Shown: positions 1 through 14,732, counted from the stretch's first letter. The stretch: DNA of 64,000 nucleotides from Acidobacteriota bacterium (GCA_965217775.1 CBDCJH010000002.1:2112001-2176000), one strand, 5' to 3'. Made by a program: numbers and translations. Notes: generated from the letters alone by a model not told the origin.

Positions 1-3
1 ATT

Positions 4-465
4 GTGGGCAATGGATACGTGGCGGCCGTGGAAACCACTGGCAGGTGCCTGATGGAGGACTTTGGTAATGAGGATGTCTGGGTCACCGGAGTCGATCCTT
101 CTGGATTTTCCGCCGGGGCCGACGACCAACAAGCCGCTGCGGAAGCCTTCCAGCGAGAGCACCGTGTCGCTCTCCTTGACATGATTCATGAGGCACCTGA
201 TTTCGAGAGCTTTAGCACCATGGTCCATGAGTTCCATGCTCAGAAGAGTGTGATCGGCCAGAAGGAATGGTGGGAAGCCGTTGCTCAAGTAAGGGCTGGG
301 GTAATCACATCTGAGTGGCTGGAGAAAGTGTCGGCCGACACTGAACCCAAGCTCAAGGTTCAGTGTATTTCTTTGGGCAATTCCGAGGAGCCCGTGGAAC
401 ATCGGGCTGTACCGAGCCCGTCACTCAATCCTGACGAGTATCAGATTAGAAAACTCGCTGCGTGA
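4..465 (+). CDS. Hypothetical protein, possibly HicB-like antitoxin (5' end may lie outside the window)
   Basis: 153-aa ORF. The acidic segment 'WVTGVDPSGFSAGADDQQAAAEAF' loosely resembles a HicB RNase H-like fold. A short basic ORF follows with overlapping TGATG coupling. Confidence 0.35.
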   Translation: MGNGYVAAVETTGRCLMEDFGNEDVWVTGVDPSGFSAGADDQQAAAEAFQREHRVALLDMIHEAPDFESFSTMVHEFHAQKSVIGQKEWWEAVAQVRAGVITSEWLEKVSADTEPKLKVQCISLGNSEEPVEHRAVPSPSLNPDEYQIRKLAA

Positions 466-545
466 TGCCGGCGAAAGGGCAGATTCCCATCAGGCAAGTG
501 AAGAAAATGCTTGATGAATGTGCCCCCGGATCCGAACTGCCTTGA
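465..545 (+). pseudogene. Short ORF MPAKGQIPIRQVKKMLDECAPGSELP, probably a truncated HicA-like partner ending at repeat 1
   Basis: Translationally coupled to the upstream ORF and stops 1 bp before the 25-bp repeat. Confidence 0.3.
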
Positions 546-546
546 G

Positions 547-571
547 GAGAGGAGGTGACTGTCCCCTTCTC
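547..571 (+). repeat. 25-bp array repeat, copy 1 (GAGAGGAGGTGACTGTCCCCTTCTC)
   Basis: Read directly. Imperfect hairpin GAGAGGAGG/CCCCTTCTC around TGACTGT. Confidence 0.95.
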
Positions 572-730
572 CCGAAGTGGCCCACATGCACGCGCGATGG
601 CGCTGTCCGCGACCTCGCGCCGGACACTGCCGAGGTCGAGGCTCCCACTGATCCGCAGGCTGGCCGTGCCCGGCCTGAAGATGCGGTCCCGCAAGACCCG
701 CTTCTCTCATCTCAGTTCGTCGGCAGTCTT
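572..730 (-). pseudogene. N-terminal remnant of a GAF-type sensor/regulator
   Basis: 'LRDRIFRPGTASLRISGSLDLGSVRREVADSA' resembles the helix preceding GAF domains (SLDLxxVLREVxxSA). It has an internal stop and runs into repeat 1. Confidence 0.4.
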
Positions 731-1090
731 CAATTGTCCTTCCTCGACGGAATCCGGAGCGAGACTTGGTTCAGCGTCCCTAACCGTCGGTTCGCCGAAG
801 GATCGGGGTGCGCCACGTTCTCCAGCCCATGGCAATTGCTGATTGATCGATTACTTCACGTACTTTACACTATATAAGCTCATAATATCACTATAATTTC
901 ACTCTATTCTGCTATCGTTGATTCAAGTATGTTGCTCGACGCGTTAGAGGCCATTTGTTGGCCTTCGAACGTTTCACAGAGAACTCAGCATGGGAAGCGC
1001 AGGTCACCGCGGGGTACCCGATCCAGTTGAGATCCTAGAGACGATTGACGTGATTACCCGTTCGGCACCCATGTAGTTGAAAAGAATCCA

Positions 1091-2716
1091 ATGAGAAAGC
1101 AGATGAGACCGATTGTCTTGGTTTTCGTGACGGCGTTGTTCGGCTGGGTGACCGGTGCCTCCGGGCTTGCCCAGACCATCTACGAGGTCACCATCTATAA
1201 CCTCACTCGGGGTCAGTTGATCACCCCTCCATTGCTGGCCACGCTCGGCCGAGAGGTTCAGAGCACGGATCAGACCGATCCACCGTATGCGGGCACTGTC
1301 TGGATCGACCCGGACATCATCACGCCATCAGATCCGACTGCGCTCGTGAGCGTGACGGATGCCGGAAGGGGGCAACGGACGATGTTCGACCAGCGGATCA
1401 AGGACTGGATCATGGTCAACGCCTATTTGTTCATGGCCCGATTTGATGATGGGCTGACTGCGGAGATTCAGGTCAATCCAGAGTTCGGCAGTGCGTCCTC
1501 CGCGATGGCAAAGGCAAGCAAATATGGGAGATCCATTGGCCAATTGCCGACCGTTCTTCGAACCAATGTCGAGACGGTCTGGATCCATAAAGGGAATGCA
1601 CCTCTCGGGGGTGGGAACAACAATATTCTCATTCATGTCGATTTTCCGGAAGATTATCTGGAGGAGGGATTGGTCCACGAGGGGGCGCACACTTCCCTGG
1701 ACCCACCTTGGATGGGGATTGTCAATGCCGCCGATTGGCGCGCTGCCCAGACGGCCGATGGCAACTTCATTTCCAACTACGCACGAGACCATCCGGAGCG
1801 AGAAGACATCGCCGAATCGTTCCTGCCGTACTTGGCCGTCCGAAATCGTTCGGCTCGAATCTCCCGATCTTACGAGCGGACAATCTTGGAGACGATGCCG
1901 AACCGGATCGCATACTTCGACCGACTTCTCCAGGCTCAATCGGACAACGCATTGCATCCAATCACGTTGGACCTTCGAAAGTCTCTGGACTTCGCGCATT
2001 TCGGGAATGGCGGGTCCATCACCTCGGACTTGGTGTTGATGAACGTGGAGCCGTCGGCGACTTACCCGGCCGTCTACTTCTACGACGAAATGGGTGAACT
2101 GATCGACCCCGAATCGGTGGTGGAGGTGACGGAAAATCTGGAAGTCCGGGAGGACGGAGCGTTGACCACCCGGACGGGGATTGAGCCTCTGGGTGAACTG
2201 GTGATTTCGACCCATGGGCGAGGGAAGTTGGTGACCGGATCGGTTACGGTCTTCTCCGACATCGTGCGCTCCAATCTCCAGGGCGGCAAGAACCGAGCGG
2301 ATGCGGGTGGCGCGGCCCGCATCGGCGGGGTCCTGCGGTTCGACTCCCCGTCCCTGGGCGTGGCCGGCGTGGGGGCCAGTGCGCCCGTAAACGACGTCAT
2401 TTTCCCGGCGCGTCGCCAAGAGGGCGGAATCAACACCGGAGCCGCGATCCGGAACCTGGGAGAGAATCGGATCGATGTGAGTTGCCAATTGATGAAAGCA
2501 GGCGCCGTATTGGAGACGAAGGACATTTCACTGGCCGGTAACGGACAGACGGCCAAGTTCATCCACGAGTTGTTCACCCAGACCGATACGTCCGATTTTG
2601 TCGGGTCGGTTCGTTGCACCGCTCCTGAAGGGGAACGGTTCACCGGTGTCGCCCTGGAGATGGATGCCGATAGCCGAATCTTTACGACTTTGCCGGTGGT
2701 TCCCGTCCCGCAGTGA
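1091..2716 (+). CDS. Secreted modular protein with a zincin-like metallopeptidase domain
   Basis: Signal peptide; spondin-like start YEVTIYNLTRGQ; HEGAH (HExxH) followed by SNYARDHPEREDIAE; beta-rich C-terminal domain starting LDFAHFGNGG. Confidence 0.65.
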   Translation: MRKQMRPIVLVFVTALFGWVTGASGLAQTIYEVTIYNLTRGQLITPPLLATLGREVQSTDQTDPPYAGTVWIDPDIITPSDPTALVSVTDAGRGQRTMFDQRIKDWIMVNAYLFMARFDDGLTAEIQVNPEFGSASSAMAKASKYGRSIGQLPTVLRTNVETVWIHKGNAPLGGGNNNILIHVDFPEDYLEEGLVHEGAHTSLDPPWMGIVNAADWRAAQTADGNFISNYARDHPEREDIAESFLPYLAVRNRSARISRSYERTILETMPNRIAYFDRLLQAQSDNALHPITLDLRKSLDFAHFGNGGSITSDLVLMNVEPSATYPAVYFYDEMGELIDPESVVEVTENLEVREDGALTTRTGIEPLGELVISTHGRGKLVTGSVTVFSDIVRSNLQGGKNRADAGGAARIGGVLRFDSPSLGVAGVGASAPVNDVIFPARRQEGGINTGAAIRNLGENRIDVSCQLMKAGAVLETKDISLAGNGQTAKFIHELFTQTDTSDFVGSVRCTAPEGERFTGVALEMDADSRIFTTLPVVPVPQ

Positions 2717-2745
2717 CGAGAATCAATTGAAAAGACGTCCTTCCG

Positions 2746-2846
2746 ATAGCCGATGCCGCCGCTCTCCGTGCCGACCTCGGTCTGATACTTGAGGATAAAG
2801 GTGATCAGGTCGGCCATCTCCTGGTGGTCGATGTTCTCTTCCAGAC
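2746..2846 (-). pseudogene. 3' fragment of a paralog of the PVC-type heme-binding CxxCH gene
   Basis: Ungapped hand alignment to 14811-14911 with about 14 mismatches in 101 nt. Encodes EMADLITFILKYQTEVGTESGGIGY versus EMADLISFILKYQYEVGTESAGIGY. Confidence 0.85.
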
Positions 2847-2863
2847 TCTTGTAACGGGCCCGC

Positions 2864-2888
2864 GAGAGGAGGTGACTGTCCCTTTCTC
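2864..2888 (+). repeat. 25-bp array repeat, copy 2
   Basis: GAGAGGAGGTGACTGTCCCTTTCTC. Confidence 0.95.
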
Positions 2889-2907
2889 CGTTTCACTTGA
2901 CTTACAG

Positions 2908-3189
2908 TCAGCAAAACGACCCCATTACGTAGATACCACCGAGAAGCGCCCCAGTGAGAACAATTGCCGGAATGTATCCTCCCGATGGTGCCGCCGGTGG
3001 TGGTGCCGATGGTGCCGCCGGTGGTGGTGCCGACCTGGAGTTTAGCCATCGGATCGACGCCCAAATCAGCAGAATCACGAAGACCGGAAGTAGAGCCAGT
3101 GCAGCAAGATACAAAAATGCAAGAATCCCCAGGCCACCGACCCCCAAGATTACCGCTATCGCTGCCAGTAACTCTGCTATCTCTGCCAT
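2908..3189 (-). CDS. Small membrane protein with a Pro/Ala-rich linker
   Basis: ATG preceded by GAGGGGG; hydrophobic helices; a 24-nt tandem duplication encodes SAPPPAAP twice. Confidence 0.5.
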   Translation of the reverse strand: MAEIAELLAAIAVILGVGGLGILAFLYLAALALLPVFVILLIWASIRWLNSRSAPPPAAPSAPPPAAPSGGYIPAIVLTGALLGGIYVMGSFC

Positions 3190-3521
3190 GGCGAAGCCCC
3201 CCTCAGTATTTGCCCCTCTTCTCGCCGGTCGCCTTCCACCATCCGAACGCCAGAGCTGCCCGTTGCTCCCGGTCGGGATGCTCGAAGTCATGCGCGAATA
3301 GTCGATCAGGTCTGGAAGCCGGACCCTTGTAGCGTAGATCGAACGCAGCCGCGACGAGCCGAACGAGGAAGCTTCTCACTTGCCATTGATCCGCCTTGAG
3401 ACCCGGGGTCCGCTGCCGAGACATGCTACCCAGGATTGCAGACAGTTGGAACCGGGGGACCTCCAGTAAATCCAGGCTGGAGTTGATTGCCGATCAAATT
3501 CGACCTGGAGCATCCGTTTCC

Positions 3522-3785
3522 TCATTCTGCCGCCTCGTAGAGCGATGAAATCCCGAACCCCTGGACCTCGACGCCCTCAGAGTAGGCAGTCGACATAGCG
3601 GGAGATTTCCAACGCAGGATGACCGCGACCGCATGCGCCGGTATACCGTTCAATGTGAGCTGCTGAGCCAGACCCCCTCTCAGGGAATGACCGGAGACCC
3701 TGCCCCGGATGCCCGATTGACGTGCCCTTTTCTTGATCACGTCTCGAACTGCCCGAGCTACGAGCTTCACGTGGAGAGTGAAGAG
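3522..3785 (-). pseudogene. C-terminal fragment of a tyrosine recombinase/integrase
   Basis: VIKKRARQSGIRGRVSGHSLRGG...LRWKSPAMSTAY contains HxxR, W and the catalytic Y. The N-terminal part is missing and the fragment begins at repeat 3. Confidence 0.8.
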
Positions 3786-4174
3786 AGGTGACTGTCCCCT
3801 TCTCTCGTCCCCGTTGAAGTCAACGAGACATCGAGCCTCACTTGGTCGTAAGGCACCCGCGGGACCAGCCTCCCACGCGCTCCCCGTTGCAATTCCACGA
3901 TCCCGTATTGAGACATCGTCTTCAGAGTTCGCGAAAGGTTCGACTTGCTTCGTCCGGCCATCTCCGCGAGCTCCGTGAGCGAACCCGGTTGCTCTCGGGC
4001 AATCAGCTCCAGGAGATGCCTGTTGTGCTCGGACAGCAACTTCGCAATGCTCTCGATCGAGGTGAACCACACCTTCGGCTCACCCTTCGCGGGCGTGTGC
4101 TCGCCGCGGGCAATCGCCAGGGTGCGCGCCTTCATCTGATCATAACCGGCAATCCCGATCTCTAACGTCTTCAT
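3767..4174 (-). CDS. HTH transcriptional regulator/antitoxin (HVO_A0114-like)
   Basis: MKTLEIGIA...VWFTSIESIAKLLS...PGSLTELAEMAGRSKSNLSRTLK. The ORF reads through repeat 3 before stopping. Confidence 0.8.
   Translation of the reverse strand: MKTLEIGIAGYDQMKARTLAIARGEHTPAKGEPKVWFTSIESIAKLLSEHNRHLLELIAREQPGSLTELAEMAGRSKSNLSRTLKTMSQYGIVELQRGARGRLVPRVPYDQVRLDVSLTSTGTREGDSHLSSLST
3780..3804 (+). repeat. 25-bp array repeat, copy 3 (left arm variant)
   Basis: GAAGAGAGGTGACTGTCCCCTTCTC. Confidence 0.9.
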
Positions 4175-4543
4175 GGAATCGAGCCTCCTTTCTCCAAGAA
4201 CTTGGTCCACTTCTTTCCAGAAATCCTCGAGGAGCGTCGCTGCGTCTTAGTATTCATAGGGCCGGATCGTCCGCAGCCGATGCCGATGGTCGCCCTCTGC
4301 CCGTCGTCGCCTGCCCGGGCCCGACCGCTCCCTAACCGGGTGCGCATTATCGATTCCAACCAATCTGGCGCCATCCGGCGCGTGCAGCGTCAACGAGTAC
4401 CGGAGGCCGTGCGGTCGTTCGGGAGTCACCTCGGTCCGCACTACGATGAACTTCACCCAATACCCCGTGTCGTCCACAAACAGCGTCTCGCCGTGAAGGT
4501 CGAGCAGGGTGTCCAGTCCGGGATCTCGGCCCGGAATCGTCAT
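4175..4543 (-). pseudogene. DUF6516/TumE-like toxin with a premature in-frame TAA (4247-4249)
   Basis: PERPHGLRYSLTLH...LVGIDNAH motif. After the TAA the frame continues DAATLLEDFWKEVDQVL, the expected family C-terminus. Confidence 0.7.
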
Positions 4544-4551
4544 CGATTGAT

Positions 4552-4570
4552 GTTATCAGATAATGATAAC
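4552..4570. promoter_or_regulatory. Palindromic operator GTTATCA-N5-TGATAAC upstream of the TA pair
   Basis: Perfect 7-bp inverted repeat 8 nt upstream of the toxin start codon. Confidence 0.6.
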
Positions 4571-4581
4571 CGAGGACGGGC

Positions 4582-4606
4582 GAGAGGAGATGACTGTCCC
4601 CTTCTC
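4582..4606 (+). repeat. 25-bp array repeat, copy 4
   Basis: GAGAGGAGATGACTGTCCCCTTCTC. Confidence 0.95.
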
Positions 4607-4693
4607 TCGCCTTGCGTTACCCTGCCTTGACCGCCTGATTCGGTGCCCTCTACGATTCACCCCAGATTCCAGCCCACAGAAAGGACAGCCATC

Positions 4694-5923
4694 ATGGTGA
4701 GATCGAAAGCACGATCCCAATCCATCAGTCGCCGAATGTTTTTCCAAGGTGCAAAGGCAGCTGGTACGACAGCATTGACGGCTTCACTATTCGGAAGACG
4801 GTACCGCCCGCTTGAGGCTGGCAAGCAGTTGCGCATCGGCGTGGTGGGCGGTGGATTCGGCGCAGCGTTTCCCTGGCATCGGCATCCCAACTGCAAGGTG
4901 ACCGCAGTCGCTGATCTCAGGGAGGACCGCCGGAAAAAGATGGAAGAGCGGTTCGAGTGCTCTAACGCCTATGCGGATTTCCGCGCCATGCTCAAGGACC
5001 CCTCAGTGGATGCAGTCTCCATCTTCACCGGGGCGCCCCGTCACGTTCCCCATTGCGTGGAGGTCATGGAATCCGGTCGACACGTTATCAGCGCCGTTCC
5101 GGCCGCCATAACCCTGGAACAGTGCCAGCAGCTTCTCGTGGCCGTCAAAAAAACCGGCCAGATCTACATGATGGCCGAAACCAGCTGCTTTCACCCATCC
5201 ACCATGACTGCCCGCAGACTAAGGCAAGACGGCAAGTTCGGGAGAATCTATTACACGCAGGGGGACTACCTCCATGACCACGGCACCTACTTGGCGAAGG
5301 GGGAGATGCCGGAGTATCTGGATCGGATGTTCTTTCACGAGGGCAAGCGAACATGGCGGTACGGCAACGCGCAAGGCCTCTATATCACCCATGCCAGCGG
5401 TCCGATCATTTATGTGACCGGCGAGAGCTTGGTTGAGGTCGCGGCGGTCGGAACGCCGTTGGATCACCCGTTCTACAAGGAGAACCGGTACGGCAACCCC
5501 TTCATGAACACCACCTTCTTCTTCAAAACGTCGGGTGGAAACTCCTCCCGAGTCAACATCCACTGGTGGACCGCAGCTCCCGGCCGTGAAGGTGCGGACT
5601 ATTTTGGGACCGAAATGTCGTTATTCGAGAGGTGGAAGGGTCTGCGCCCTTCCGCTTACGTGACTCGTCCTCATTCAGAACCCGAACTTCTGCAGGCAGA
5701 CCACTCCGGGGAACTGCCGCCGTCACTGCGGACCGTTGGGGGACACGGGGGTTCCCATCCCTTCATCATTCATGAGTTCGTTTCGGCATGTCTGGAGCAG
5801 CGCCCCCCGTCAGTCGATGTCCATCAGGCCCTGTCCTATACTGCGCCCGGAATCGTAGGATTCCACTCGGCTCTGAAGGGTGGAGACTGGCTGAAGATTC
5901 CCGATTTTGGACCCGTCAGTTAG
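4694..5923 (+). CDS. Gfo/Idh/MocA family oxidoreductase, Tat-exported
   Basis: SRRMFF twin-arginine motif; LRIGVVGGGFG Rossmann motif; VDAVSIFT; GGHGGSH. Confidence 0.9.
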   Translation: MVRSKARSQSISRRMFFQGAKAAGTTALTASLFGRRYRPLEAGKQLRIGVVGGGFGAAFPWHRHPNCKVTAVADLREDRRKKMEERFECSNAYADFRAMLKDPSVDAVSIFTGAPRHVPHCVEVMESGRHVISAVPAAITLEQCQQLLVAVKKTGQIYMMAETSCFHPSTMTARRLRQDGKFGRIYYTQGDYLHDHGTYLAKGEMPEYLDRMFFHEGKRTWRYGNAQGLYITHASGPIIYVTGESLVEVAAVGTPLDHPFYKENRYGNPFMNTTFFFKTSGGNSSRVNIHWWTAAPGREGADYFGTEMSLFERWKGLRPSAYVTRPHSEPELLQADHSGELPPSLRTVGGHGGSHPFIIHEFVSACLEQRPPSVDVHQALSYTAPGIVGFHSALKGGDWLKIPDFGPVS

Positions 5924-5964
5924 CCATAACCGGTGAGCCCGGTTGTTTTGGAAACTCGCGCGGC

Positions 5965-5989
5965 GAGAGGAGGTGACTGTCCCCTTCTC
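5965..5989 (+). repeat. 25-bp array repeat, copy 5
   Basis: Exact consensus. Confidence 0.95.
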
Positions 5990-6099
5990 CCGGTTATGGC
6001 CGCCAATTTCCTCCGGGCTATGGCAGGAAGAATAGAGTCGTTTAAACTGCACTCATAGGCTGAAAATGTAGCACCATCCCATCGGCGAGGAGAGAGTCA

Positions 6100-6780
6100 A
6101 TGGCATCGGCACTCAAGAACTTGTCGCCAATTCGTGCTTGCGGCGAAGTCTTGCCGCCACCGCAGCTATTCGAGAATATCCCGATGCTGCACTGGTTTTT
6201 GACAGAGGTGCTTGAGGATTGGCTGCGTGCAGTCGGTCCTTATCAAGAGCAAGTTGATAACGCGGAGGACGAAGCAGCGATGATATATGCGTTCGTGGAT
6301 CTCCAATCCATGTTCTTGAAGTGCCTATTCTCCTATGCCTTCTTCTTCGTTTCAGCTGATAACGCTTATGCGTTTTTTTACAAGAAGTTGAACCGCGCAA
6401 ACTTTCTTTCAGGTCTGAGATTAAAGCATGGAAAACCACCGAAAAAGACGTCATTGGTTTGCAAACTCCGTCGGATCAGAAACATTTCCATCGCGCATTT
6501 TCCGTCTGACGATGCCAATCCCATTGATGCTTTCGCTGGTATGTCCTGGACACCGATGAGTCTGTCGTCATCCAGTGGTGGTCGCGTGGATCTTGAGAAA
6601 CTTACCTTCGTACCAGGTCGATTTCGCGGGATAGATGCATCAGGCCAAAGTATCGAATCTGAAGACTTTGAAATTTCTGGAATTAGGACCCTGCACCAGC
6701 ATTGTATGTCGTACTTGGAGCAATACGATCAGATTTGCTGCGACTATTTGGGTGGACTAAAAATCGCAATTGGAACTTGA
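6100..6780 (+). CDS. Hypothetical protein with a HEPN-like RNxxxxH motif
   Basis: 226-aa ORF, visibly AT-richer than the backbone, with RBS GAGGAG. It fills one repeat-bounded segment and contains LRRIRNISIAH. Confidence 0.55.
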   Translation: MASALKNLSPIRACGEVLPPPQLFENIPMLHWFLTEVLEDWLRAVGPYQEQVDNAEDEAAMIYAFVDLQSMFLKCLFSYAFFFVSADNAYAFFYKKLNRANFLSGLRLKHGKPPKKTSLVCKLRRIRNISIAHFPSDDANPIDAFAGMSWTPMSLSSSSGGRVDLEKLTFVPGRFRGIDASGQSIESEDFEISGIRTLHQHCMSYLEQYDQICCDYLGGLKIAIGT

Positions 6781-6805
6781 AACGCGTCGGCAACAAAATA
6801 CGGAC

Positions 6806-6830
6806 AAGAGGAGGTGACTGTCTCCTTCTC
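6806..6830 (+). repeat. 25-bp array repeat, copy 6
   Basis: AAGAGGAGGTGACTGTCTCCTTCTC. Confidence 0.92.
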
Positions 6831-6914
6831 CCGCCCGTCAAAGCTGGAGACGAAATTGTTGGGTGGAGTTCCGGAAACCCCGGTGTTCCACTTTGACCGA
6901 CAAGAACTCCCATC

Positions 6915-7568
6915 ATGCTTGACATCGCGAGAGTTATGAGCGAACTGGCTAGCGATAGGCCGGTGTTTCATTCCGAGGCCGACTTCCAGCACGCGTTTGC
7001 GTGGCACATTCACTCCTTAATGCCGAACGGCAAGGTTCGTCTGGAATACCGACCCTTACCGGACGAAGCGGTGTACCTGGACCTCTGGTTTCCTGCTATC
7101 GGAGTTGTCGTGGAACTGAAGTACTACACCCGAGAGCTTAAGCTTGAACACGACAGTGAATTGTTCTCGCTACGCAATCAGGCAGCGATGCCACCCCGCC
7201 GATATGACTTTCTAAAAGACATTCAACGGCTTGAGCGAGTGTGCAGAAAGCGGAGGGACATTCGAACCGGTTTCGCGGTCCTGCTGACCAACGATTACCT
7301 CTATTGGACACAATCGGCACGGGACAATGTTGTGGATGCCGATTTCTGCCTCTACGCCGGACGGCTAGTTGCGGGAGAAATGGATTGGTCGATGGGCGCT
7401 GCCGACGGAACGAAGAGAGGCCGGGAAAAACCCATCTGTCTTGCTGGTTCCTACGAACTGCAATGGCGTGATTATCCGGCGGAGATTGGCGACGCACGCC
7501 ATGGACAGTTTCGTTACCTAGCGGTCCAGGTGTCCCCGCTGGGCTGTGGTGGCCTCGCTCCCGAATAG
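6915..7568 (+). CDS. Putative PD-(D/E)XK nuclease-fold protein
   Basis: FHSEADFQHAFAW...LEY...YLDLW...VVELKY...FLKDIQRLE motif order. Confidence 0.7.
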   Translation: MLDIARVMSELASDRPVFHSEADFQHAFAWHIHSLMPNGKVRLEYRPLPDEAVYLDLWFPAIGVVVELKYYTRELKLEHDSELFSLRNQAAMPPRRYDFLKDIQRLERVCRKRRDIRTGFAVLLTNDYLYWTQSARDNVVDADFCLYAGRLVAGEMDWSMGAADGTKRGREKPICLAGSYELQWRDYPAEIGDARHGQFRYLAVQVSPLGCGGLAPE

Positions 7569-7773
7569 GGTATGGCAAGGTATTTTTTGGGACTACAACC
7601 CACAACCCTAACTGGCTGATTTTCTGCGCCGGACGTGGTCCTGTGCCCCACTCTTTCCGGCCTTGGTGAGTTCACTCCGACGAAATAATCGCATTTGCCC
7701 CTTCTGGGATCATTCCAACCAGGAGGTCGATGCCTGAGGCGCCGGACCCACAAATGCGGAGGAAGGGCCAAAC

Positions 7774-7798
7774 GAGAGGAGGTGACTGTCCCCTTCTC
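7774..7798 (+). repeat. 25-bp array repeat, copy 7
   Basis: Exact consensus. Confidence 0.95.
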
Positions 7799-7864
7799 GT
7801 CCGATTTTGGACCCGTCGGTTAGCCGATCCCGGAGAGGCCGGCGGCTTTGGGAACTCGCGGGAC

Positions 7865-7889
7865 GAGACGAGGTGACTGTCCCCTTCTC
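7865..7889 (+). repeat. 25-bp array repeat, copy 8
   Basis: GAGACGAGGTGACTGTCCCCTTCTC. Confidence 0.95.
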
Positions 7890-8116
7890 CCGCGCCCGGT
7901 TGCGGCGGGGGAGCGGAGCTGGCCCACGCGCTACAGTGCGAGACCGAGGGCCGATTTCGATGATCTGGAAGCTACCACTATTCAACTCGGGCTCCCGCAC
8001 CCGAGCTACTGGCCCGAGACTCGGGCAAGGGATAGACTGGGGGACAGGAGGGTAGTTCTCTGTGGGCTCGTCAGGCCGAGTGGGAACGTGTCGAAACAGC
8101 GGGTTGAGTAAAGACT

Positions 8117-9136
8117 ATGGACGTGAGTTTACGGGTTCCTGCGATAGAAAAACTCTTAGATTATGCCGCTAGTGGAATCGGGGCGATCGCCGGACCGATG
8201 TTAGCCAATTGGAGAGCATCCAGAGAAGGAAAGGCTCGACTCACTTCCGCCCATGTTGATGCGGAAGTGCGCCACATTGAAACGAAATCAAACACCCGAT
8301 CCTTGCAGATCATCGCCAAAGCTCAGGCCACGGCTCGGCAATCTATTGACACAACGATTGAGTCAGGGCACGGCATGGTGAAAATCACCCGTGACGACAT
8401 TACCCAGTCAATTGAGTTTCAGGGGCGAAAACGCCTAGCAAATGCCGGATCCGTCGTAGAGAGTGCTGCCGATGAGCTTGGCGGCAAGGAAGTTTCAGGT
8501 CACGAGCCTAACCATGACTGGACGGCGCGAGTCTTTAACTACATACAGGACGTATCTTCAGAAGAGATGCAGTTGCTTTGGGCGAAAGTGCTCGCTGGCG
8601 AGATTCAACGACCCGGGAGTACGTCCATTCAGGCTCTAAGTATTCTGAGAAATCTTGACCAGACCACGGCTAGACTTTTTGAAAAGCTCTGCTCCGCCTG
8701 TGTCTCGATTAGGGTGTCTGGAGATCATTTCATGGATGCTAGAGTTCCTTCATTGGGTGGTCATGCAGGACACAACGTCCTGCGAGATTACGGACTCAGT
8801 TTTGATAACCTCAATGTACTCAACGAGCATGGGCTCGTAATCTCCGACTACAACTCTTGGTACGACTACAGGCTGTGCATAGGGATTCGTATAGGCGAAC
8901 CTGTGCAGCACACCGTCCGAATTCCCTTCCGTTTTCAGGGGCGAAATTGGACTTTGAAGCCGACAACCGAACAGGCTGTAGACCAAGAATTCAAGTTATC
9001 GGGTGTAGCTTTGACCGGATCAGGACGGGAGCTGTCAAGGATTGTCGATTTGGTGCCCGTGAACAAGTACGCTCAAGCCCTAATGAATTTCTTTCAAAAG
9101 AATAATTTGAAAATGATTGAGGTTGATAGAGCCTGA
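8117..9136 (+). CDS. DUF2806 domain-containing protein
   Basis: DWTARVFNYIQDVSSEEMQLLWAKVLAGEIQRPGSTS signature. Confidence 0.8.
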   Translation: MDVSLRVPAIEKLLDYAASGIGAIAGPMLANWRASREGKARLTSAHVDAEVRHIETKSNTRSLQIIAKAQATARQSIDTTIESGHGMVKITRDDITQSIEFQGRKRLANAGSVVESAADELGGKEVSGHEPNHDWTARVFNYIQDVSSEEMQLLWAKVLAGEIQRPGSTSIQALSILRNLDQTTARLFEKLCSACVSIRVSGDHFMDARVPSLGGHAGHNVLRDYGLSFDNLNVLNEHGLVISDYNSWYDYRLCIGIRIGEPVQHTVRIPFRFQGRNWTLKPTTEQAVDQEFKLSGVALTGSGRELSRIVDLVPVNKYAQALMNFFQKNNLKMIEVDRA

Positions 9137-9531
9137 TAGATACGCTTGTCATTGAAGTCGGCACGGACGTTACCGGTCTTTGGGAAGGCTCCAATAAACC
9201 CCTTTTGTGCCCTGAGGGCTTCCCTGGAAGCACCCAGTTTGTTCAATGGGTCATTGCCTCGAACCATGAAGGGTCGGTTGGTTCGCAAGCGAATACTGTG
9301 AGCCGCGCCACCGTTTCTATTCAGCCAAGTCATCGTCTCTTTCAGCAATTCCACCATTCCCACTCATGTGTGTGTCTGCTGCGCCTTCGAAGAAGTGGTC
9401 ACCAAGGAGAAGCCGACCCCAAACTCAGCCATGACGAATGTTCTCTAGCATAACGGTCCGTGCTGAACAGGACAGATCATGTGCCAACGACAGTGCAGCG
9501 CACTAGGATTGCACGGTGGGATGGTTCCTCA

Positions 9532-10128
9532 ATGAGTATCGAGCAGCGCTTCGATGTTCCCGTCATCGCCGCAATGGCGCTCCGGGAGAAGCAGATCCAG
9601 CAGAACTACCGCCCGATCATCAGTGTCCATAAATGGTTCGCCCGCCGGCCGGGAACCTTGTTTCGCGGCCTCGTACTTGCAGAATTCGGCAAAGACCCAC
9701 TGAAAAATGCTTTCTTTCGAGCAAACAACTTTTACGGACTCCGGATCGCCGACTCGTTCATGGGCGGCGGCACGCCGCTGATCGAGGCGAATCGCGTTGG
9801 CTGTGACGTGGATGGTTGTGACGTCAACCCGATGGCGGCCTGGATCGTCCGTGAGGAGGTCGAACACATTGACATGCCGGCCTATGAACGGGCGGCTGAT
9901 GCGCTCACCGCTGCCCTCCGCTCGGAGATCGGCCGATACTATCGGACTTCCTGCCCCCACTACGGAGATGAGGACGTCCCGGTGGAATCCTTTCTGTGGC
10001 TCAAGCAACTCGATTGCGAAGCCTGCAGAATGCCCTTCGATCTATTCCCTGGCTACCTTCTCGCCAAGAATAGGCGGCACCCCAAAAATGTCCTGGTCTG
10101 TCCAACGTGCGGCGATCTCAACGAAGTC
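9532..10128 (+). pseudogene. N-terminal fragment of a DUF1156-type adenine DNA methyltransferase
   Basis: REKQIQQNYRPIISVHKWFARRPG; DSFMGGGTPLIEANRVG; CxxC pairs. Ends abruptly after CGDLNEV. Confidence 0.8.
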
Positions 10129-10551
10129 CGGTCGGATCTTGACACTTATGTCGATGCCGTGTTCGGGTGTCTCACGTTCGAGTTTCTCGTCATGCCCAAG
10201 GGCGACGGGTTTGTCGAGTTTCCCGTGTTCGAGAACGGGTACGAAGCCCTGAAGCGCGCCACCGCCAGCTTCCGCGAAGTCACCCCTGGTACAGTCGCAG
10301 CGGTTGTATTCGAGACGCCAATTTTACTGATCGTCCTTCGGTGCATGCTGGGGTTCACACCGCCGGAGTGGACTTAATACGCAAACAGGCACACCGGCGT
10401 CAACGTGACGCAGGGCGCGGCCCGTGCGATCGACCGGAAAATCCGCATGAAACCCGAGACGGCCTTGCCTACGAAGGGAAGTGTGACCGAACGGCGCATT
10501 CGCGCGCTGATCGCTGCCGCCTGTCATGCCCTGGAGTCCGGGGTTCGTGAG
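10129..10551 (+). pseudogene. Fragment of a probable R-M partner gene (putative endonuclease), fused in frame to the MTase piece
   Basis: EFLVMPKGDGFVEFPVFENGYEALK...LRCMLGFTPPEW. After an in-frame TAA at 10375 the frame stays open until repeat 9. Confidence 0.5.
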
Positions 10552-10576
10552 GAGAGGAGGTGACTGTCCCCTTCTC
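10552..10576 (+). repeat. 25-bp array repeat, copy 9
   Basis: Exact consensus. Confidence 0.95.
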
Positions 10577-11023
10577 CCGGGTGGGTCTGGCGGGGACGAA
10601 GTGGGCGCGGCACAGAGCTGGACGATGCGCCTGAAACTGCTGAAGATCGGGGCCCAGGTCCGGGTCACGACGCGCAAGGTCTGGTTGTCGTTTTCCGAGA
10701 GCTACCCCTATGCGGCGTTGTTGAGAACGGCTCTGGCGCAAGTGCAAGCCCTCCCGCTTCGCTGTTAGCGAGAACTCGCCCGATGCAAGACGTCCGGTTG
10801 GGAATCCGCGGGATGGACTTTGCCCTGGAGTCGGTTCATTGGGGGTGAAACGTCGCTCATGAGTGCCGGCGGGAGGCCAAATGCTTCTGGACTTTGCCGG
10901 ATTCCGGCATTCGTCAACGCATTCGAGCCGACGGCATGGTTCTCGATTTCATGTGGACAAGAAACCACTGAAATGCTGTTAATAAAACCGATTGTCGCGT
11001 CCGTGTTGAGAAATTGCGGCTAG
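10577..11023 (+). mobile_element. IS1380-family remnant: transposase C-terminus plus probable right end
   Basis: TMRLKLLKIGAQVRVTTRKVWLSFSESYPY, typical of the IS1380 C-terminus; end-like TGAGAAATTGCGGCTAG near 11007-11023. Starts immediately after repeat 9. Confidence 0.8.
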
Positions 11024-11073
11024 CAGTTGAAGGACGAATTGCTCTTGGGGTGTTGTCAGTTCTTCGGGTTCGG

Positions 11074-11550
11074 TCATGCTGTCCATTTGCAAAAGATGAG
11101 GCAAAGATTGACGATCATGGTAACGAAGAATAGTAATAGGAATGAAGTTGGCAGGATTGTCTCGACAACTGTTAGCTTTGCGTAGCTTCGATATTCCTTC
11201 CCTTCTTTCAGCAGTTCCCATTCTCGTTTGAAGAACGGATAAGGCAACTCCTTCTCCATTTCTTGCAAGGCTTTGAACTTTCCGGAGTTGAGTTGTCTGT
11301 AGGATCGAATAACAATGTACCACGAGAGTGAAAGGAAAATCCCCACGACTGAAGCGACGGCCAGGACGGTTGGCACGGGTCCGTCACCAAATCTGACTAA
11401 GGCTCCGGTAAATGCTACGAATGTTGTAAGCATCCCGGCATAAAGCCGATTGGCTCCCTCCCGACGTTGACTTACTCTGTCAGCAAGTCGAGCGTGAAGC
11501 TTGTAGATTTCCAATAGCGTACTGGATTGCGAATCGGGAGGATCGGTCAT
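11074..11550 (-). CDS. Small multi-TM membrane protein, candidate defence effector (resembles proteins annotated RipA-like/octameric membrane protein)
   Basis: EIYKL...ADRVSQRREGANRLY; about 3 hydrophobic helices; SYRQLNSGKFKALQEMEKELP. Starts 3 nt downstream of the TIR gene. Confidence 0.65.
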   Translation of the reverse strand: MTDPPDSQSSTLLEIYKLHARLADRVSQRREGANRLYAGMLTTFVAFTGALVRFGDGPVPTVLAVASVVGIFLSLSWYIVIRSYRQLNSGKFKALQEMEKELPYPFFKREWELLKEGKEYRSYAKLTVVETILPTSFLLLFFVTMIVNLCLIFCKWTA

Positions 11551-11553
11551 TGT

Positions 11554-11964
11554 CTAACCCTGCCTTCTAATCGCAGCGACGATACTCTCGGTATTCCAGT
11601 TAACAATCTCGTCGGCGGCCACCGTAACCACCGTTGACATATTCGTATTTCCCCACGGTTTAATTGCGATTATAGGTTTGGGGGACGAGAAACCGTTTTT
11701 TGCTATACCAATCTCTTCTTTTATCCACTTGCTATAAGTGGAGTACACTCCGGCCATGATAAGTATGACGTGACATGGTCTCATATGGTTTGTGATTGCT
11801 TCTCGAAGCTCGTCCTCATTGTCCGCGTCGTGGACTGGATCATCTTTGGGAACCGAATAGTCCCTGAACGAGAAGTAGGCTCTAGAATTCAAAAGATTTA
11901 TAAGTCTATCGTAATTCTCTGAGTAGGACCATGAATGGCTAATAAACAAATTGTAAGTTTTCAT
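11554..11964 (-). CDS. TIR-like domain protein (ThsB/MTH538/DUF1863 type)
   Basis: YNLFISHSW...DYSVPKDDP...SKWIKEEI (catalytic Glu)...KPIIAIKPWG...ADEIVNWNTESIVAAIR. Confidence 0.88.
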   Translation of the reverse strand: MKTYNLFISHSWSYSENYDRLINLLNSRAYFSFRDYSVPKDDPVHDADNEDELREAITNHMRPCHVILIMAGVYSTYSKWIKEEIGIAKNGFSSPKPIIAIKPWGNTNMSTVVTVAADEIVNWNTESIVAAIRRQG

Positions 11965-12209
11965 TCCTGTCTCCTTGAACGGTAGTCTCACCGTCGATTA
12001 CTGGGCAATCTGCTCACTTTACTACAATGGACTGACGAATACCTCAGTGACTTTCCTGAGTCGAAGGGAGTATCATGAACTGAGGACGGGCAATGACTGT
12101 CTGACTCCTGTAGCTCAGTCAAAGGTTCAGCAGGAGTCGCATTCTGGTTCTACCTGTCATCCTTCCCTTACCACAGGTTGGAGTCTGGCTTGAGTTTGTC
12201 AACTAGGAT

Positions 12210-12640
12210 TTATAATTCCCAATTCAAAACATTCTCGCCGAAATCTCCAAGAGAAGAGATCCGGTTCCTCAAGGCGGCAAGAGGGATGGAGTCAAAGTAG
12301 TTAGCAAGATCAGTGATGACGACGTAGTTGTAGGATCGCGCGAACTTCCAGATCCGTTCCTGGAATCGCGGCCACAGAATCCACCAAGGATACGCGAATG
12401 TGCCGTCAACCTCCTCGGGAGTCGGGAGAGCATGATTCTGGGAGTAGTAGGCGTTCGGATGGGGCTGATCAGCCCTGATCTCCCTCTCTAGAACATTGAC
12501 CAGAGTCTGGAGAAGAATAGCGTCTGCCGCCGACGGCAGAACCAATCGCCGAGGGATTCCTCCCCGTTTCTCTAGCAGTATGATCTCGGGTGGGGACGGG
12601 CGATACTGACCTGAAAGGACTTCACTTCTTAGCAAGGACC
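12210..12640 (-). pseudogene. Internal fragment of a non-intron reverse transcriptase (RT1-RT3 region)
   Basis: YRPSPPEIILLEKRGGIPRRLVLPSAADAILL and VVITDLANYFDSI. No start codon, no YxDD; begins at repeat 10. Confidence 0.75.
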
Positions 12641-12665
12641 GAGAGGAGGTGGCTGTCCCCTTCTC
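12641..12665 (+). repeat. 25-bp array repeat, copy 10
   Basis: GAGAGGAGGTGGCTGTCCCCTTCTC. Confidence 0.93.
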
Positions 12666-12758
12666 ACGCGCACGCACGAGTGTTGGAACCTCTCCGCTGT
12701 GTCCAATGGAATCCAGGAGACGACCCAAGGGTGGCGAGAGTGTACGTGAGAACGATGG

Positions 12759-13031
12759 TCATTCGAGCGCTACGAGGCCCAGGATGACACTCATGACGAT
12801 GGCTGTGATGAGAGGGATAACGAGGTAGTAGAGGGTGAGGATGGCCAGGAAAACGTAGAGTATCCACTTGACAGCCCAGACCATGCCGCCGAGATGGCGA
12901 GCTAAGCCAGCCGGGGGAGCTTGTCGGCGCGGCGGCTGGCGCTGTTGGAGGGCCTTCCGCAGATTCTCCGCCTCGCGGCGCATCCTTTCCGCCCGCGAAG
13001 GGCCGGGCGCTGGCGGACATCCTCGAACCAC
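12759..13031 (-). CDS. Small membrane protein (start uncertain)
   Basis: Two C-terminal hydrophobic helices. Confidence 0.35.
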   Translation of the reverse strand: MVRGCPPAPGPSRAERMRREAENLRKALQQRQPPRRQAPPAGLARHLGGMVWAVKWILYVFLAILTLYYLVIPLITAIVMSVILGLVALE

Positions 13032-13260
13032 TGGCCTACATCTGGCGGGTCTTCCCCGTCAGCCTCCCTGAAAAGGCCCGAGAAGTAGTGGTCACGGACC
13101 TGCTCAACCAGAACAACCACCAGCCGTCCATTAGGTCGTCTGGTTGGCAAGTTCCATGGGTCATAAACTAAGTATAGCCCGCCTCAGAACGGACAATCCA
13201 CTTCCCCCACTGTGGACTGTCTCCTCTGGGGCCACAAAAAACGTGACCGATCTCCGTGGC

Positions 13261-13285
13261 GAGAGGAAATGACTTTCCCCTCTCT
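13261..13285 (+). repeat. Degenerate array repeat, copy 11
   Basis: GAGAGGAAATGACTTTCCCCTCTCT, same orientation as the others. Confidence 0.6.
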
Positions 13286-13377
13286 AAAGGGCAACAGACA
13301 TGGCTTTCAAAAACTCTTTTTTGCGCCTTTCGATTTCCTTCCCGTTGATCAGGATTTTCATAGATAAACTCCAATTT

Positions 13378-14019: not shown

Positions 14020-14062
14020 GACTTTTCTCTTTGGGTCTGCTCTCCATGCCGGAGAGGAGTGC

Positions 14063-14662: not shown

Positions 14663-14732
14663 GTCGTAATTTTACAATCGTTAACTGAAATTATCGGCAG
14701 CAATCCCCGTCGCGCTCCCCACCTGAAATCAA

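What the first reader, a model, noticed from the sequence alone, without database searches (positions are those of the whole stretch)
547..13285. Candidate new system: co-oriented 25-bp palindromic repeats delimit an array of gene-sized, defence-rich cassettes
Seen: GAGAGGAGGTGACTGTCCCCTTCTC occurs at 547, 2864, 3780, 4582, 5965, 6806, 7774, 7865, 10552 and 12641, with a degenerate copy at 13261. All copies are on the same strand and I found none in the remaining 50 kb. Start-to-start spacings are 2317, 916, 802, 1383, 841, 968, 91, 2687, 2089 and 620 bp. The repeat is an asymmetric hairpin (GAGAGGAGG/CCCCTTCTC arms, TGACTGT loop), so it is directional. Several segments hold exactly one gene or module (TA pair, oxidoreductase, HEPN-like ORF, nuclease). 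Cargo lies on either strand and varies in base composition. Known: CRISPR spacers are short and uniform, attC sites have RYYYAAC/GTTRRRY ends, and dif sites have XerC/D arms; none of these fits. Inference: this is an integron-like platform in which a recombinase or HUH/RAYT-type enzyme acting in trans captures, stacks or deletes DNA at this site, accumulating defence and TA genes.
Basis: partly seen in the sequence, partly recalled or inferred. Interest (0 to 1): 0.92.

Follow-up and report, generated by a model that had tools for sequence, protein, structure and literature searches.

The report
Transposase-linked repeats punctuating a variable island
The 25-base repeat is one local variant of a genome-wide short repeat that belongs to a known type of single-strand DNA transposase system, so this is not a new integron-like machine, although the repeats do sit where genes in this variable region were cut, lost or reshuffled.

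Summary
Ten copies (3 or fewer mismatches) lie on the + strand at the stated coordinates, with none expected by chance.

The repeat is not confined to this locus:
- Its core GACTGTCCCCTT occurs 104 times exactly in the 6.4-Mb genome, on both strands, against 1 for a reversed control. It is mostly intergenic.
- Eleven paralogous 311-aa Y1/HUH transposase genes are each flanked by inverted copies of it. Their best fold match is the E. coli REP-associated transposase 4ER8.
- The reverse strand, GGGGACAG, fits the published GGGGWSAS motif of repeats flanking such genes (PMC3733652).
- Repeat and transposase co-occur across 41 related genomes.
- No integron integrase was found.

- Neighbouring copies are strongly co-oriented genome-wide: 121 same against 29 opposite within 5 kb.
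- The locus is hypervariable in seven congeners.
- Truncated genes and insertion-sequence fragments repeatedly abut the repeats.

Other arrays carry ordinary metabolic genes. Verdict: a new member of a known kind (REPtron/TIRtron), with repeat-adjacent rearrangement. Cassette capture is not shown.

The parts
547..571 (+). repeat copy, 0 mismatches
1091..2716 (+). 541-aa ORF of unknown family. The only Pfam hit is a sub-threshold Peptidase_Mx match.
2720..2863 (-). 3'-terminal fragment (about 47 codons plus stop) of a paralogue of the flanking DUF7133/HEAT/cytochrome c gene. Its 5' side is cut at the repeat.
   Evidence: My reading of the sequence. 117 bp are 85% identical to the region at window 14798-14914.
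2864..2888 (+). repeat copy, 1 mismatch
   Evidence: Bridged by contigs with 0 differences.
3578..3770 (-). C-terminal fragment of a tyrosine recombinase (Phage_integrase profile positions 102-166 of 172). The 5' two-thirds are missing and the break lies 10 nt from the repeat.
3780..3804 (+). repeat copy, 3 mismatches
3767..4210 (-). HTH protein (HVO_A0114/IclR-type), the likely antitoxin. Its reading frame runs on through the repeat at 3780.
4247..4543 (-). TumE-family toxin
4582..4606 (+). repeat copy, 1 mismatch. It is kept next to the TA module in five congeners.
4643..5923 (+). Gfo/Idh/MocA oxidoreductase. It is a paralogue (91% DNA identity) of the gene just upstream of the window. The 1358-bp segment between repeats has the same length in G007 and G002.
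5965..5989 (+). repeat copy, 0 mismatches
6100..6780 (+). 226-aa ORF with no family. A 73% identical counterpart lies at the same relative place in G005.
6806..6830 (+). repeat copy, 2 mismatches
6915..7568 (+). 217-aa ORF with no family. The nearest named Atlas clusters are restriction or PD-(D/E)XK nucleases at 0.75-0.77, which is a lead only.
7774..7798 (+). repeat copy, 0 mismatches
7799..7864 (+). 66-bp remnant between two repeats: the last ~25 nt of an oxidoreductase gene plus its downstream hairpin
7865..7889 (+). repeat copy, 1 mismatch
8117..9136 (+). DUF2806 protein
9460..10550 (+). N-terminal fragment of a DUF1156-type DNA methyltransferase. The matching profiles are about 950 positions long, and only roughly the first 200 are matched. 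A second frame runs up to the repeat.
10552..10576 (+). repeat copy, 0 mismatches
10578..11022 (+). 3' end fragment of a multicopy insertion sequence, starting 2 nt after the repeat. The family name IS1380-like is my recollection from the C-terminal peptide, not a tool result.
11074..11550 (-). 8xMP membrane protein
11554..11991 (-). ThsB-like TIR protein
12210..12640 (-). internal fragment of a UG13a-type defence reverse transcriptase (profile positions 58-194 of 589). Its 5' side is cut at the repeat.
12641..12665 (+). repeat copy, 1 mismatch
13261..13285 (+). degenerate copy, about 7 mismatches by eye

Best explanation
The 25-mer is the locus-specific variant of a genome-wide family of short, weakly palindromic repeats. 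The consensus is G-A-R-A-A-N-G-W-GACTGTCCCCTTYTC, and the reverse strand reads GGGGACAG. The family belongs to a REPtron/TIRtron-type system: a Y1 HUH single-strand DNA transposase (RAYT/TIRYT, 311 aa, 11 gene copies) whose genes are flanked by inverted copies of the repeat. The enzyme presumably nicks and rejoins DNA at or beside the repeat in trans.

The array in the window is the longest co-oriented cluster of this family. It lies in a low-G+C region between two conserved genes, and that region differs in every congener examined.

Shown:
- family membership of the repeat;
- the link between repeat and enzyme;
- local co-orientation;
- hypervariability of the locus;
- gene and IS fragments that end at the repeats.

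Inferred:
- The transposase spreads copies locally on one strand, which would explain the co-orientation and the cluster-specific left arms.
- Cleavage and rejoining at the repeat edges, and perhaps at the palindrome centre, cause adjacent deletions, half-site duplications and occasional reshuffling of the DNA between repeats.
- The gene-sized spacing mainly reflects one repeat per intergenic gap or breakpoint. It does not reflect a cassette-capture machine.
For: Genome-wide family:
- The 25-mer at 3 or fewer mismatches occurs 45 times, 23 forward and 22 reverse, against 0 for the control.
- The exact 12-mer core occurs 104 times against 1 for the reversed control. With 1 or fewer mismatches it occurs 236 times against 20.
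- Of the 104 exact copies, 84 lie outside my crude gene calls, although those calls cover 86% of the genome.

The enzyme:
- There are 11 full-length copies at 83-100% aa identity.
- PF01797 is matched above its cut-off in 3 of the 3 copies scanned. NF047646 REP_Tyr_transpos aligns over 3-145 of 146 positions, but scores 48-51 bits against a cut-off of 80.
- The HUH residues (N62/H63/H65) and Y162 are invariant or nearly so in 51 homologues.
- The AF2 model has pLDDT 82.9. Its top PDB match is 4er8_A (REP-associated tyrosine transposase bound to a REP hairpin), with E = 6.2e-7 and TM 0.75 normalised to the target. IS200/IS608/ISDra2 transposases follow.
- JGI names several homologues 'REP element-mobilizing transposase RayT'.

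Arrangement around the genes:
- 11 of 11 gene copies have a core copy 118-264 bp upstream on the opposite strand.
- 10 of 11 have one downstream on the gene's strand.

Co-occurrence across genomes:
- The 10 genomes with a homologue at 73% identity or more hold 29-129 copies of the 15-mer.
- The other 31 hold at most 21.

Literature (passages read):
- RAYT-like genes flanked by inverted repeats sharing GGGGWSAS, some forming repeat families arranged in dimers or clusters. One transposase group is specific to Acidobacteria. [quoted passage not shown]
- High-copy atypical hairpins with several transposase gene copies occur in an acidobacterium (PMC6006769).
- TnpA_REP cleaves single-stranded DNA both 5' and 3' of the REP (PMC8266576).

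Co-orientation:
- Neighbours 5 kb or less apart: 121 same against 29 opposite. Neighbours more than 10 kb apart: 40 against 31.
- In the 11-copy array at C2:4417717-4432426 the repeats stay on + while the genes change strand.

Breakpoints at the repeats:
- Four truncated genes abut the left edge of repeats in the window, and two fragments abut right edges.
- 5 of 7 truncated copies of one IS in this genome have a repeat within 50 nt of the truncated end, at four different internal IS positions.
- Deletions of 160 bp and 2.7 kb end exactly at a repeat edge. One polymorphism is repeat-1.2 kb-repeat against a single repeat. One is a clean presence or absence of a 26-bp repeat.
- 44 of 158 left ends and 90 of 163 right ends of homology blocks lie within 80 nt of a repeat. 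Roughly 7% of the sequence does, which is my estimate and not a computed control.
Against: - The hairpin is no more stable than shuffled sequence, with z-scores of -1.22 to +0.20. There is no GTAG tag. The one variable stem position shows no clear covariation. The canonical REP structure is therefore not met.
- The transposase is multicopy. It is not the single-copy domesticated gene of the classical REPIN-RAYT model (PMC5581495).
- NCBIfam's curated cut-off is not reached. Sequence searches of the PDB found nothing.
- No cleavage, circle or excision product was seen. Every joint in the laid contigs has only 25-31 nt on one side, which is the repeat itself.
- Orientation does not follow replication direction at the level of clusters, so a simple lagging-strand rule does not explain the co-orientation.
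- Recombination between repeats by host pathways could give the same breakpoints without the transposase.
- Breakpoint counts rest on 8 related loci, so they are not independent.
Confidence: 0.75

Rival explanations
1. The repeats act as a cassette platform, the first reader's model with the enzyme now identified. The Y1 transposase recombines repeat with repeat on single-stranded DNA. Whole inter-repeat segments are excised as circles and reinserted at other repeats, which builds co-oriented arrays that collect defence and TA genes.
For: - Module order differs between genomes: TA then oxidoreductase in G000, G007, G002 and G003, but oxidoreductase then TA in G004, with repeats at the junctions.
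- One polymorphism is repeat-1.2 kb-repeat against a single repeat.
- The same repeat/IS-fragment junction nucleotide occurs at two distant loci, each with its own locus-specific left arm.
- Left-half duplications end at GAC (6-7 cases) and right-half-only duplications start at (T)GTCC (22 cases). This is as expected if DNA is cut at the palindrome centre.
- In G023, 133-bp and 200-bp units each headed by the repeat are stacked in mixed order.
Against: - Most junctions carry truncated genes, not intact cassettes.
- Segment boundaries are not at a fixed offset from the repeat. The TA module has a repeat on its left in G000 but unrelated sequence there in G007 and G002.
- Other arrays hold native-looking metabolic genes with high GC3.
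- No circular or excised form was seen.
- Tandem duplication and unequal crossing-over explain the G023 arrays equally well.
- Known TnpA_REP enzymes cut outside the hairpin (PMC8266576).
Confidence: 0.12
2. The repeats are passive. They are spread by the transposase or only inherited, and they accumulate in a dispensable, horizontally acquired region. The rearrangements come from host homologous recombination, slippage and unequal crossing-over between 25-30-bp repeats, not from the transposase.
For: - Tandem reiterations of units headed by the repeat.
- The oxidoreductase plus its repeat is duplicated within the locus at 91% identity.
- Repeats at orthologous sites are conserved across species that are about 90% identical, so many copies are old.
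- Low G+C in the clusters.
Against: - Deletions that run from a repeat edge into unique DNA, such as a gene or IS interior, have no second repeat to recombine with.
- Half-site duplications share one sharp boundary.
Confidence: 0.2
3. The locus is an integron-type or Xer-type site-specific recombination array, with attC-like or dif-like sites used by a tyrosine recombinase.
For: - A tyrosine recombinase fragment lies next to the repeat at 3780.
- The copies are co-oriented.
- The site is an imperfect palindrome.
Against: - No integron integrase was found: TIGR02249 scores at best 80.6 bits against a cut-off of 265.
- The recombinase beside the repeat is a 5'-truncated fragment, so it is itself a casualty.
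- By position, none of the 23 other PF00589 matches at E <= 0.001 lies within about 4 kb of a repeat cluster (my comparison, not a computed test).
- The site is 25-29 bp with no conserved flanks and no RYYYAAC/GTTRRRY ends.
- There are more than 100 copies genome-wide on both strands.
Confidence: 0.02
4. The repeat is a regulatory or RNA element, such as a terminator, an mRNA stabiliser or a protein-binding site, kept by selection in intergenic DNA.
For: - It is mostly intergenic.
- The core is conserved across a genus and beyond.
Against: - Its orientation is unrelated to the flanking genes. The four classes of flanking-gene orientation count 29, 28, 14 and 13, and orientation stays constant across a strand switch.
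- There is no Rfam match.
- The fold is weak.
- It is linked to a transposase.
- Copies lie at truncated genes.
Confidence: 0.04

Closest known systems
TIRtron / TIRYT: tyrosine transposase genes flanked by inverted repeats sharing GGGGWSAS (Di Nocera et al. 2013, PMC3733652; passages read with 'find')
   Same: - The reverse strand of the core reads GGGGACAG, which fits GGGGWSAS.
- The transposase genes are flanked by inverted copies.
- The repeats form a genome-wide family found singly, in dimers and in clusters.
- The paper describes a distinct transposase group in Acidobacteria.
   Different: - The copy number is high (more than 100-230) and there are 11 gene copies. The paper calls such families 'moderately abundant'.
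- I could not see its Figure 9 or supplements, so I cannot say whether this exact repeat or protein group is listed.
REPtron: E. coli TnpA_REP with REP/BIME (PDB 4ER8; Corneloup et al. 2021, PMC8266576, passages read; Ton-Hoang et al. 2012, recalled only)
   Same: - The best fold match is 4ER8.
- HUH and Tyr motifs are present.
- The gene is flanked by inverted repeats and the repeats are dispersed in intergenic DNA.
- Cleavage on both sides of the repeat would fit the breakpoints seen at both edges.
   Different: - There is no GTAG tag.
- The palindrome is weak.
- The protein is 311 aa, with about 130 extra C-terminal residues, against 165 aa.
- The gene is multicopy.
- Arrays are head-to-tail over kilobases, not alternating BIMEs.
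REPIN-RAYT systems of Pseudomonas (Bertels and Rainey 2011, search listing only; Bertels et al. 2017, PMC5581495, passages read)
   Same: Short repeats are tied to a Y1 transposase, they persist across a genus, and repeat and enzyme co-occur.
   Different: - REPINs are inverted doublets served by a single-copy, vertically inherited RAYT.
- Here single and direct copies dominate. Within 200 bp, 40 neighbour pairs are co-oriented against 4 opposite.
- The gene has 11 copies.
- A 79% identical homologue with the same repeat sits in another family, G023.
Class 3 TnpA_Y1 with atypical hairpins in Solibacter usitatus (Quentin et al. 2018, PMC6006769, passages read)
   Same: - The phylum is Acidobacteria.
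- There are several closely related gene copies and hundreds of atypical hairpins. The authors say the system resembles 'both IS and REPtrons'.
- Many copies here have C-R-G-A at positions -10 to -7, which is compatible with the reported CnGA foot.
   Different: The Tyr motif here is Y-x-x-x-N (YVELNA), as in TnpA_REP class 2. It is not the Y----Q of class 3. Class membership was not tested with their profiles.
Integron cassette arrays / CALINs
   Same: The sites are co-oriented and gene-sized apart in a variable region rich in TA and defence genes.
   Different: - There is no IntI.
- The site is 25-29 bp without attC ends.
- The family is genome-wide.
- Cargo lies on both strands and is often truncated.
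IS200/IS605 elements and their non-autonomous derivatives (recalled knowledge)
   Same: They belong to the same transposase superfamily. Hairpin ends are read on one strand, so both ends are co-oriented.
   Different: - The transposase genes here are flanked by inverted copies, not direct ones.
- No defined left and right ends or target tetranucleotide were found.

Membership tests
REPtron/TIRtron (RAYT or TIRYT with its repeats) | Y1 HUH transposase with a HUH motif and a catalytic tyrosine | tested here: met
   PF01797 scores 30-37 bits against a cut-off of 23. H63, H65, Y162 and N166 are invariant and N62 is nearly invariant in 51 sequences. The fold's top hit is 4er8_A, E = 6.2e-7.
REPtron/TIRtron (RAYT or TIRYT with its repeats) | Transposase gene flanked by inverted copies of the repeat | tested here: met
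   11 of 11 copies have an upstream copy on the opposite strand. 10 of 11 have a downstream copy on the gene's strand.
REPtron/TIRtron (RAYT or TIRYT with its repeats) | The same repeat is abundant and mainly extragenic across the genome | tested here: met
   104 exact core copies against 1 for the control. 84 of 104 lie outside crude gene calls that cover 86% of the genome.
REPtron/TIRtron (RAYT or TIRYT with its repeats) | Repeat and transposase co-occur across genomes | tested here: met
   10 of 10 genomes with a homologue at 73% identity or more hold 29-129 copies. 0 of the 31 others hold more than 21. G016, an unpublished genome, is among the 31.
TIRtron (Di Nocera 2013) | GGGGWSAS motif in the flanking repeats | tested here: met
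   The reverse complement of CTGTCCCC is GGGGACAG, read directly from the sequence. The consensus is taken from PMC3733652.
Canonical REP (GTAG-tagged) | Stable G+C-rich stem-loop with a 5' GTAG tetranucleotide | tested here: not met
   Fold energy is -4.1 to -5.8 kcal/mol with z-scores of -1.22 to +0.20. The position table shows no GTAG.
Domesticated RAYT / REPIN model | Single-copy transposase with repeats as inverted doublets | tested here: not met
   There are 11 full-length copies. Close neighbours are co-oriented in 40 pairs against 4 within 200 bp.
REPtron/TIRtron | The enzyme binds and cleaves the repeat as single-stranded DNA | not testable with these tools
   This needs purified protein and oligonucleotide assays.
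Integron / CALIN | Integron integrase (IntI) | tested here: not met
   TIGR02249 scores at best 80.6 bits against a cut-off of 265 in a genome that is 97.9% complete.
Integron / CALIN | attC site: 57-141 bp, RYYYAAC...GTTRRRY ends, paired R and L boxes (features recalled) | tested here: not met
   The alignment of 11 sites with 80-nt flanks shows conservation only over about 29 bp, and no such ends.
Integron / CALIN | Sites confined to one or a few arrays | tested here: not met
   There are 86 clusters or singletons across both contigs.
Xer/dif modules | 28-bp site with 11-6-11 arms and alternating orientation of sites (features recalled) | tested here: not met
   The palindrome is centred on a single T (GAC-T-GTC) with no 6-bp spacer. 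All sites in the array are co-oriented.
CRISPR | Short uniform spacers between identical repeats | tested here: not met
   Spacings range from 91 to 2687 bp.

The most novel reading that the evidence does not exclude
A Y1 HUH transposase and its short repeat work as a single-strand-DNA analogue of an integron. Cutting at the centre of the palindrome joins a resident left half to an incoming right half plus cargo. Gene-sized segments are then excised, stacked and reshuffled in co-oriented arrays, and these arrays turn certain intergenic hotspots into variable defence and TA islands.
Probability: 0.12. Interest if true: 0.8.

Novelty: new member of a known kind. Interest (0 to 1): 0.35.

Why it matters
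- The finding places a striking 'cassette array' inside an already described class, namely tyrosine-transposase-associated repeats. This avoids a false claim of a new recombination system.
- It adds a well-resolved case from uncultured Acidobacteriota. These repeats are head-to-tail over kilobases, keep locus-specific variants across species, and lie exactly at the ends of truncated genes and IS copies.
- How RAYT-type enzymes spread their repeats, and what they do to neighbouring DNA, is still open. The breakpoints and half-site duplications listed here give concrete sites for a cleavage assay.

Tried and rejected
- Rfam scan of window 1-15000 at E <= 1: no match.
- Pfam search of the genome for PF01797 found only 5 places and missed 8 of the 11 gene copies. 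The protein search found them.
- phmmer and a 6-sequence profile against PDB sequences: nothing relevant.
- First structure model, from a 6-sequence alignment: pLDDT 49, unusable and not searched.
- Laid contigs of runs X2-X5. All repeat-to-repeat 'joints' have 25-31 nt on the shorter side, which is the repeat itself, and they may come from other loci or organisms. I draw nothing from them about excision. Uncovered parts are not interpreted.
- Replication-direction hypothesis. Copy counts show a modest bias, 89+/51- against 32+/48-. Pure clusters of both orientations occur in the same replichore, so I dropped it.
- Covariation of the outer stem. Only one variable pair, with no clear co-variation. 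The core 12-mer is conserved by construction of the search.
- attC, dif and CRISPR readings: rejected (see the membership tests).
- The tyrosine recombinase fragment as the enzyme of the array: rejected, because it is itself truncated at a repeat.
- Atlas look-ups of the two unnamed cargo proteins gave only hypothetical clusters.
- The supplements and figures of PMC3733652 and PMC6006769 could not be seen. They may list this repeat type or protein group.
- Literature searches for co-oriented REP arrays. I found no paper on this genus. I do not claim the head-to-tail habit is unpublished, because PMC3733652 describes head-tail dimers and tandem reiteration.

Full report
**The observation.** The 25-mer occurs 10 times at 3 or fewer mismatches, at the stated coordinates and all on the + strand. 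None is expected in shuffles and none lies elsewhere in the 64-kb window. The copy at 13261 is a degenerate look-alike. Aligning the sites with 80-nt flanks shows conservation over only about 29 bp, C-GAGAGGAGGTGACTGTCCCCTTCTC-CCG. The first 15 kb has lower G+C than the rest of the window. Two more + copies lie just upstream of the window, at -270 and -1652. The run therefore has 12 good copies.

**The repeat is genome-wide.** The window is G000:C2:2112001-2176000 in a 6.43-Mb, two-contig genome.
- The 25-mer at 3 or fewer mismatches occurs 45 times there, 23 forward and 22 reverse, against 0 for a reversed control.
- The core GACTGTCCCCTT occurs 104 times exactly (control 1) and 236 times with 1 or fewer mismatches (control 20).
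- Of the 104 exact copies, 84 lie outside my crude gene calls, although those calls cover 86% of the genome. Orientation relative to the flanking genes is mixed: 29, 28, 14 and 13 in the four classes.
- The family consensus is G-A-R-A-A-N-G-W-GACTGTCCCCTTYTC. It is an imperfect palindrome centred on GAC-T-GTC.
- The fold is weak. As single-stranded DNA it gives -4.1 to -5.8 kcal/mol, with z-scores of -1.22 to +0.20. Rfam has no match.

**The enzyme.** A family search found Y1_Tnp genes next to repeat copies. A protein search then showed 11 full-length paralogues of 311-313 aa at 83-100% identity, plus one fragment.
- All 11 have a core copy 118-264 bp upstream on the opposite strand. Ten of the 11 have one downstream on the gene's strand. 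This is the inverted flanking arrangement typical of REPtrons.
- PF01797 is matched above its cut-off. NCBIfam's REP-associated tyrosine transposase model aligns end to end but below its curated cut-off.
- The HUH residues and Y162 (in LYVELNAVRAGL) are conserved in 51 homologues.
- A model built from that alignment (pLDDT 82.9) matches best the E. coli REP-associated transposase bound to its hairpin (4er8_A, E = 6.2e-7). IS200, IS608 and ISDra2 transposases follow.
- There are 554 homologues at E <= 1e-5, and several are named RayT by JGI.

**Co-occurrence across genomes.** I searched 41 genomes of the order.
- The ten with a homologue at 73% identity or more (all nine of the genus, plus G023 in another family) hold 29-129 copies of the 15-mer.
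- The other 31 hold at most 21.
- The sister genus has a homologue at about 53% identity and a variant core.
- Records holding the repeat in many copies are titled uncultured Acidobacteriota.

**Fit to the literature.**
- Di Nocera et al. (PMC3733652, passages read) describe RAYT-like genes flanked by inverted repeats that share GGGGWSAS. Some of these form repeat families arranged in dimers or clusters, and one transposase group is specific to Acidobacteria. The reverse strand of the core here reads GGGGACAG. [quoted passage not shown]
- Quentin et al. (PMC6006769) describe high-copy atypical hairpins with three transposase gene copies in an acidobacterium. They say the system resembles 'both IS and REPtrons'.
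- Corneloup et al. (PMC8266576) show that TnpA_REP cuts single-stranded DNA at sites 5' and 3' of the REP.
- Bertels et al. (PMC5581495) describe classical RAYTs as mostly single-copy. This system is not.

**What remains notable.**
- *Local co-orientation is a property of the whole family.* Neighbours 5 kb or less apart are co-oriented in 121 pairs against 29 (exact cores: 50 against 6). Beyond 10 kb the counts are 40 against 31. There are 24 clusters of 4 or more copies, and 11 of them are pure in orientation. Seven of the mixed clusters contain a transposase gene with its inverted flanks. Co-orientation follows neither transcription nor replication direction at the cluster level. Each cluster has its own left-arm variant, and congeners keep that variant at this locus.
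- *The locus is hypervariable.* The stretch between a conserved hydrolase gene and the DUF7133 gene (92-97% aa identity in 8 of 8 congeners) differs in all seven congeners examined, and all carry + oriented repeats there. Among the eight genomes compared (G000 and seven congeners), the 1358-bp oxidoreductase segment occurs in all eight (twice in G000) and the TA module in six. The order of the two modules is swapped in G004. Several G000 segments have no counterpart in the 20 kb examined at this locus in each congener.
- *Repeats sit at breakpoints.* In the window, four genes are cut at the left edge of a repeat: a DUF7133-gene 3' fragment, a tyrosine recombinase C-terminal fragment, a methyltransferase N-terminal fragment and a defence reverse-transcriptase fragment. 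An oxidoreductase remnant and an IS 3' fragment start at right edges. Genome-wide, 5 of 7 truncated copies of that IS have a repeat at the truncated end, at four different internal positions.
- *Orthologous comparisons agree.* They show a clean 26-bp presence or absence of a repeat, deletions of 160 bp and 2.7 kb that end at a repeat edge, and a repeat-1.2 kb-repeat state against a single repeat.
- *Half-site duplications share one boundary.* Left halves end at GAC (6-7 cases) and right halves start at (T)GTCC (22 cases).

**Defence cargo is not a property of these arrays.**
- This array holds a TumE/HTH pair, a ThsB-like TIR gene with an 8xMP gene, and fragments of a reverse transcriptase and a methyltransferase.
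- Two other arrays hold PhyH, EamA, PEMT, SAM-methyltransferase, FAD-oxidase and enolase-superfamily genes.
- No integron integrase is present.

**Assembly.** Contigs of four runs from one study bridge the repeats at 2864, 3780, 5965, 6806, 7774 and 12641 with no differences. One of those runs may be the source sample. The repeats at 547, 4582, 7865 and 10552 were not bridged in the pieces listed.

**Verdict.**
- The array is a cluster of transposase-associated repeats of a known kind, lying in a variable island.
- The most likely mechanism is trans action of the Y1 transposase at the repeats. That action would give local spread on one strand, adjacent deletions and occasional reshuffling. This part is inferred.
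- Host recombination between repeats is a serious alternative for the rearrangements.
- True cassette capture is possible but not shown.

Noticed in passing
window 11074-11991 (-): A two-gene module pairs a ThsB-like TIR protein (PF08937) with an 8xMP octameric membrane protein (PF24838), and no ThsA is nearby. It is a possible TIR-plus-membrane-effector defence pair.
   Followed up: partly
window 10578-11022; G006 and G003 genome-wide: This is the 3' end of an insertion sequence. It is present in at least 17 copies in G006 and 5 in G003 but is mostly fragmentary in G000. The family name IS1380-like is recalled from the peptide, not tested.
   Followed up: partly
L002 (G023:C1:1458801-1461200) and L003: In a genome of another family, the same repeat heads 133-bp and about 200-bp non-coding units. 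These are stacked in mixed order in one intergenic region, with TRF periods of 202 and 337.
   Followed up: partly
window 547-571 and other copies of this array: The local variant contains GGAGGTGA, which looks like a full Shine-Dalgarno sequence (my recollection of the 16S 3' end). No start codon follows at a suitable distance. It may be chance.
   Followed up: no
G000:C2:2807131-2809498, 3539583-3541983, 1689242-1691639, 2396814-2399265: Four loci each hold three to four adjacent tyrosine recombinase matches. They look like recombinase-trio mobile elements and are not near repeat clusters.
   Followed up: no
G000:C2:2085289-2085438, about 27 kb upstream of the window: An isolated C-terminal fragment (aa 261-310, 96% identity) of the Y1 transposase.
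   Followed up: no
L001:11629-11892 (window -2371..-2108): A BrnT-family toxin gene lies at the left border of the variable region. The stretch just after it (window -2144..-1673) is kept in G007.
   Followed up: no
window 3767-3808: The HTH (antitoxin-like) reading frame runs through the repeat at 3780. In five congeners the homologous module ends at about 3809, where a TGA lies. The junction seems to have replaced the gene's native end.
   Followed up: partly
G000 as a whole: Contamination is listed as 7.47% for this two-contig genome. Contig C1 (144 kb) carries the same repeat family and an IS fragment, so it likely belongs to the same organism.
   Followed up: no
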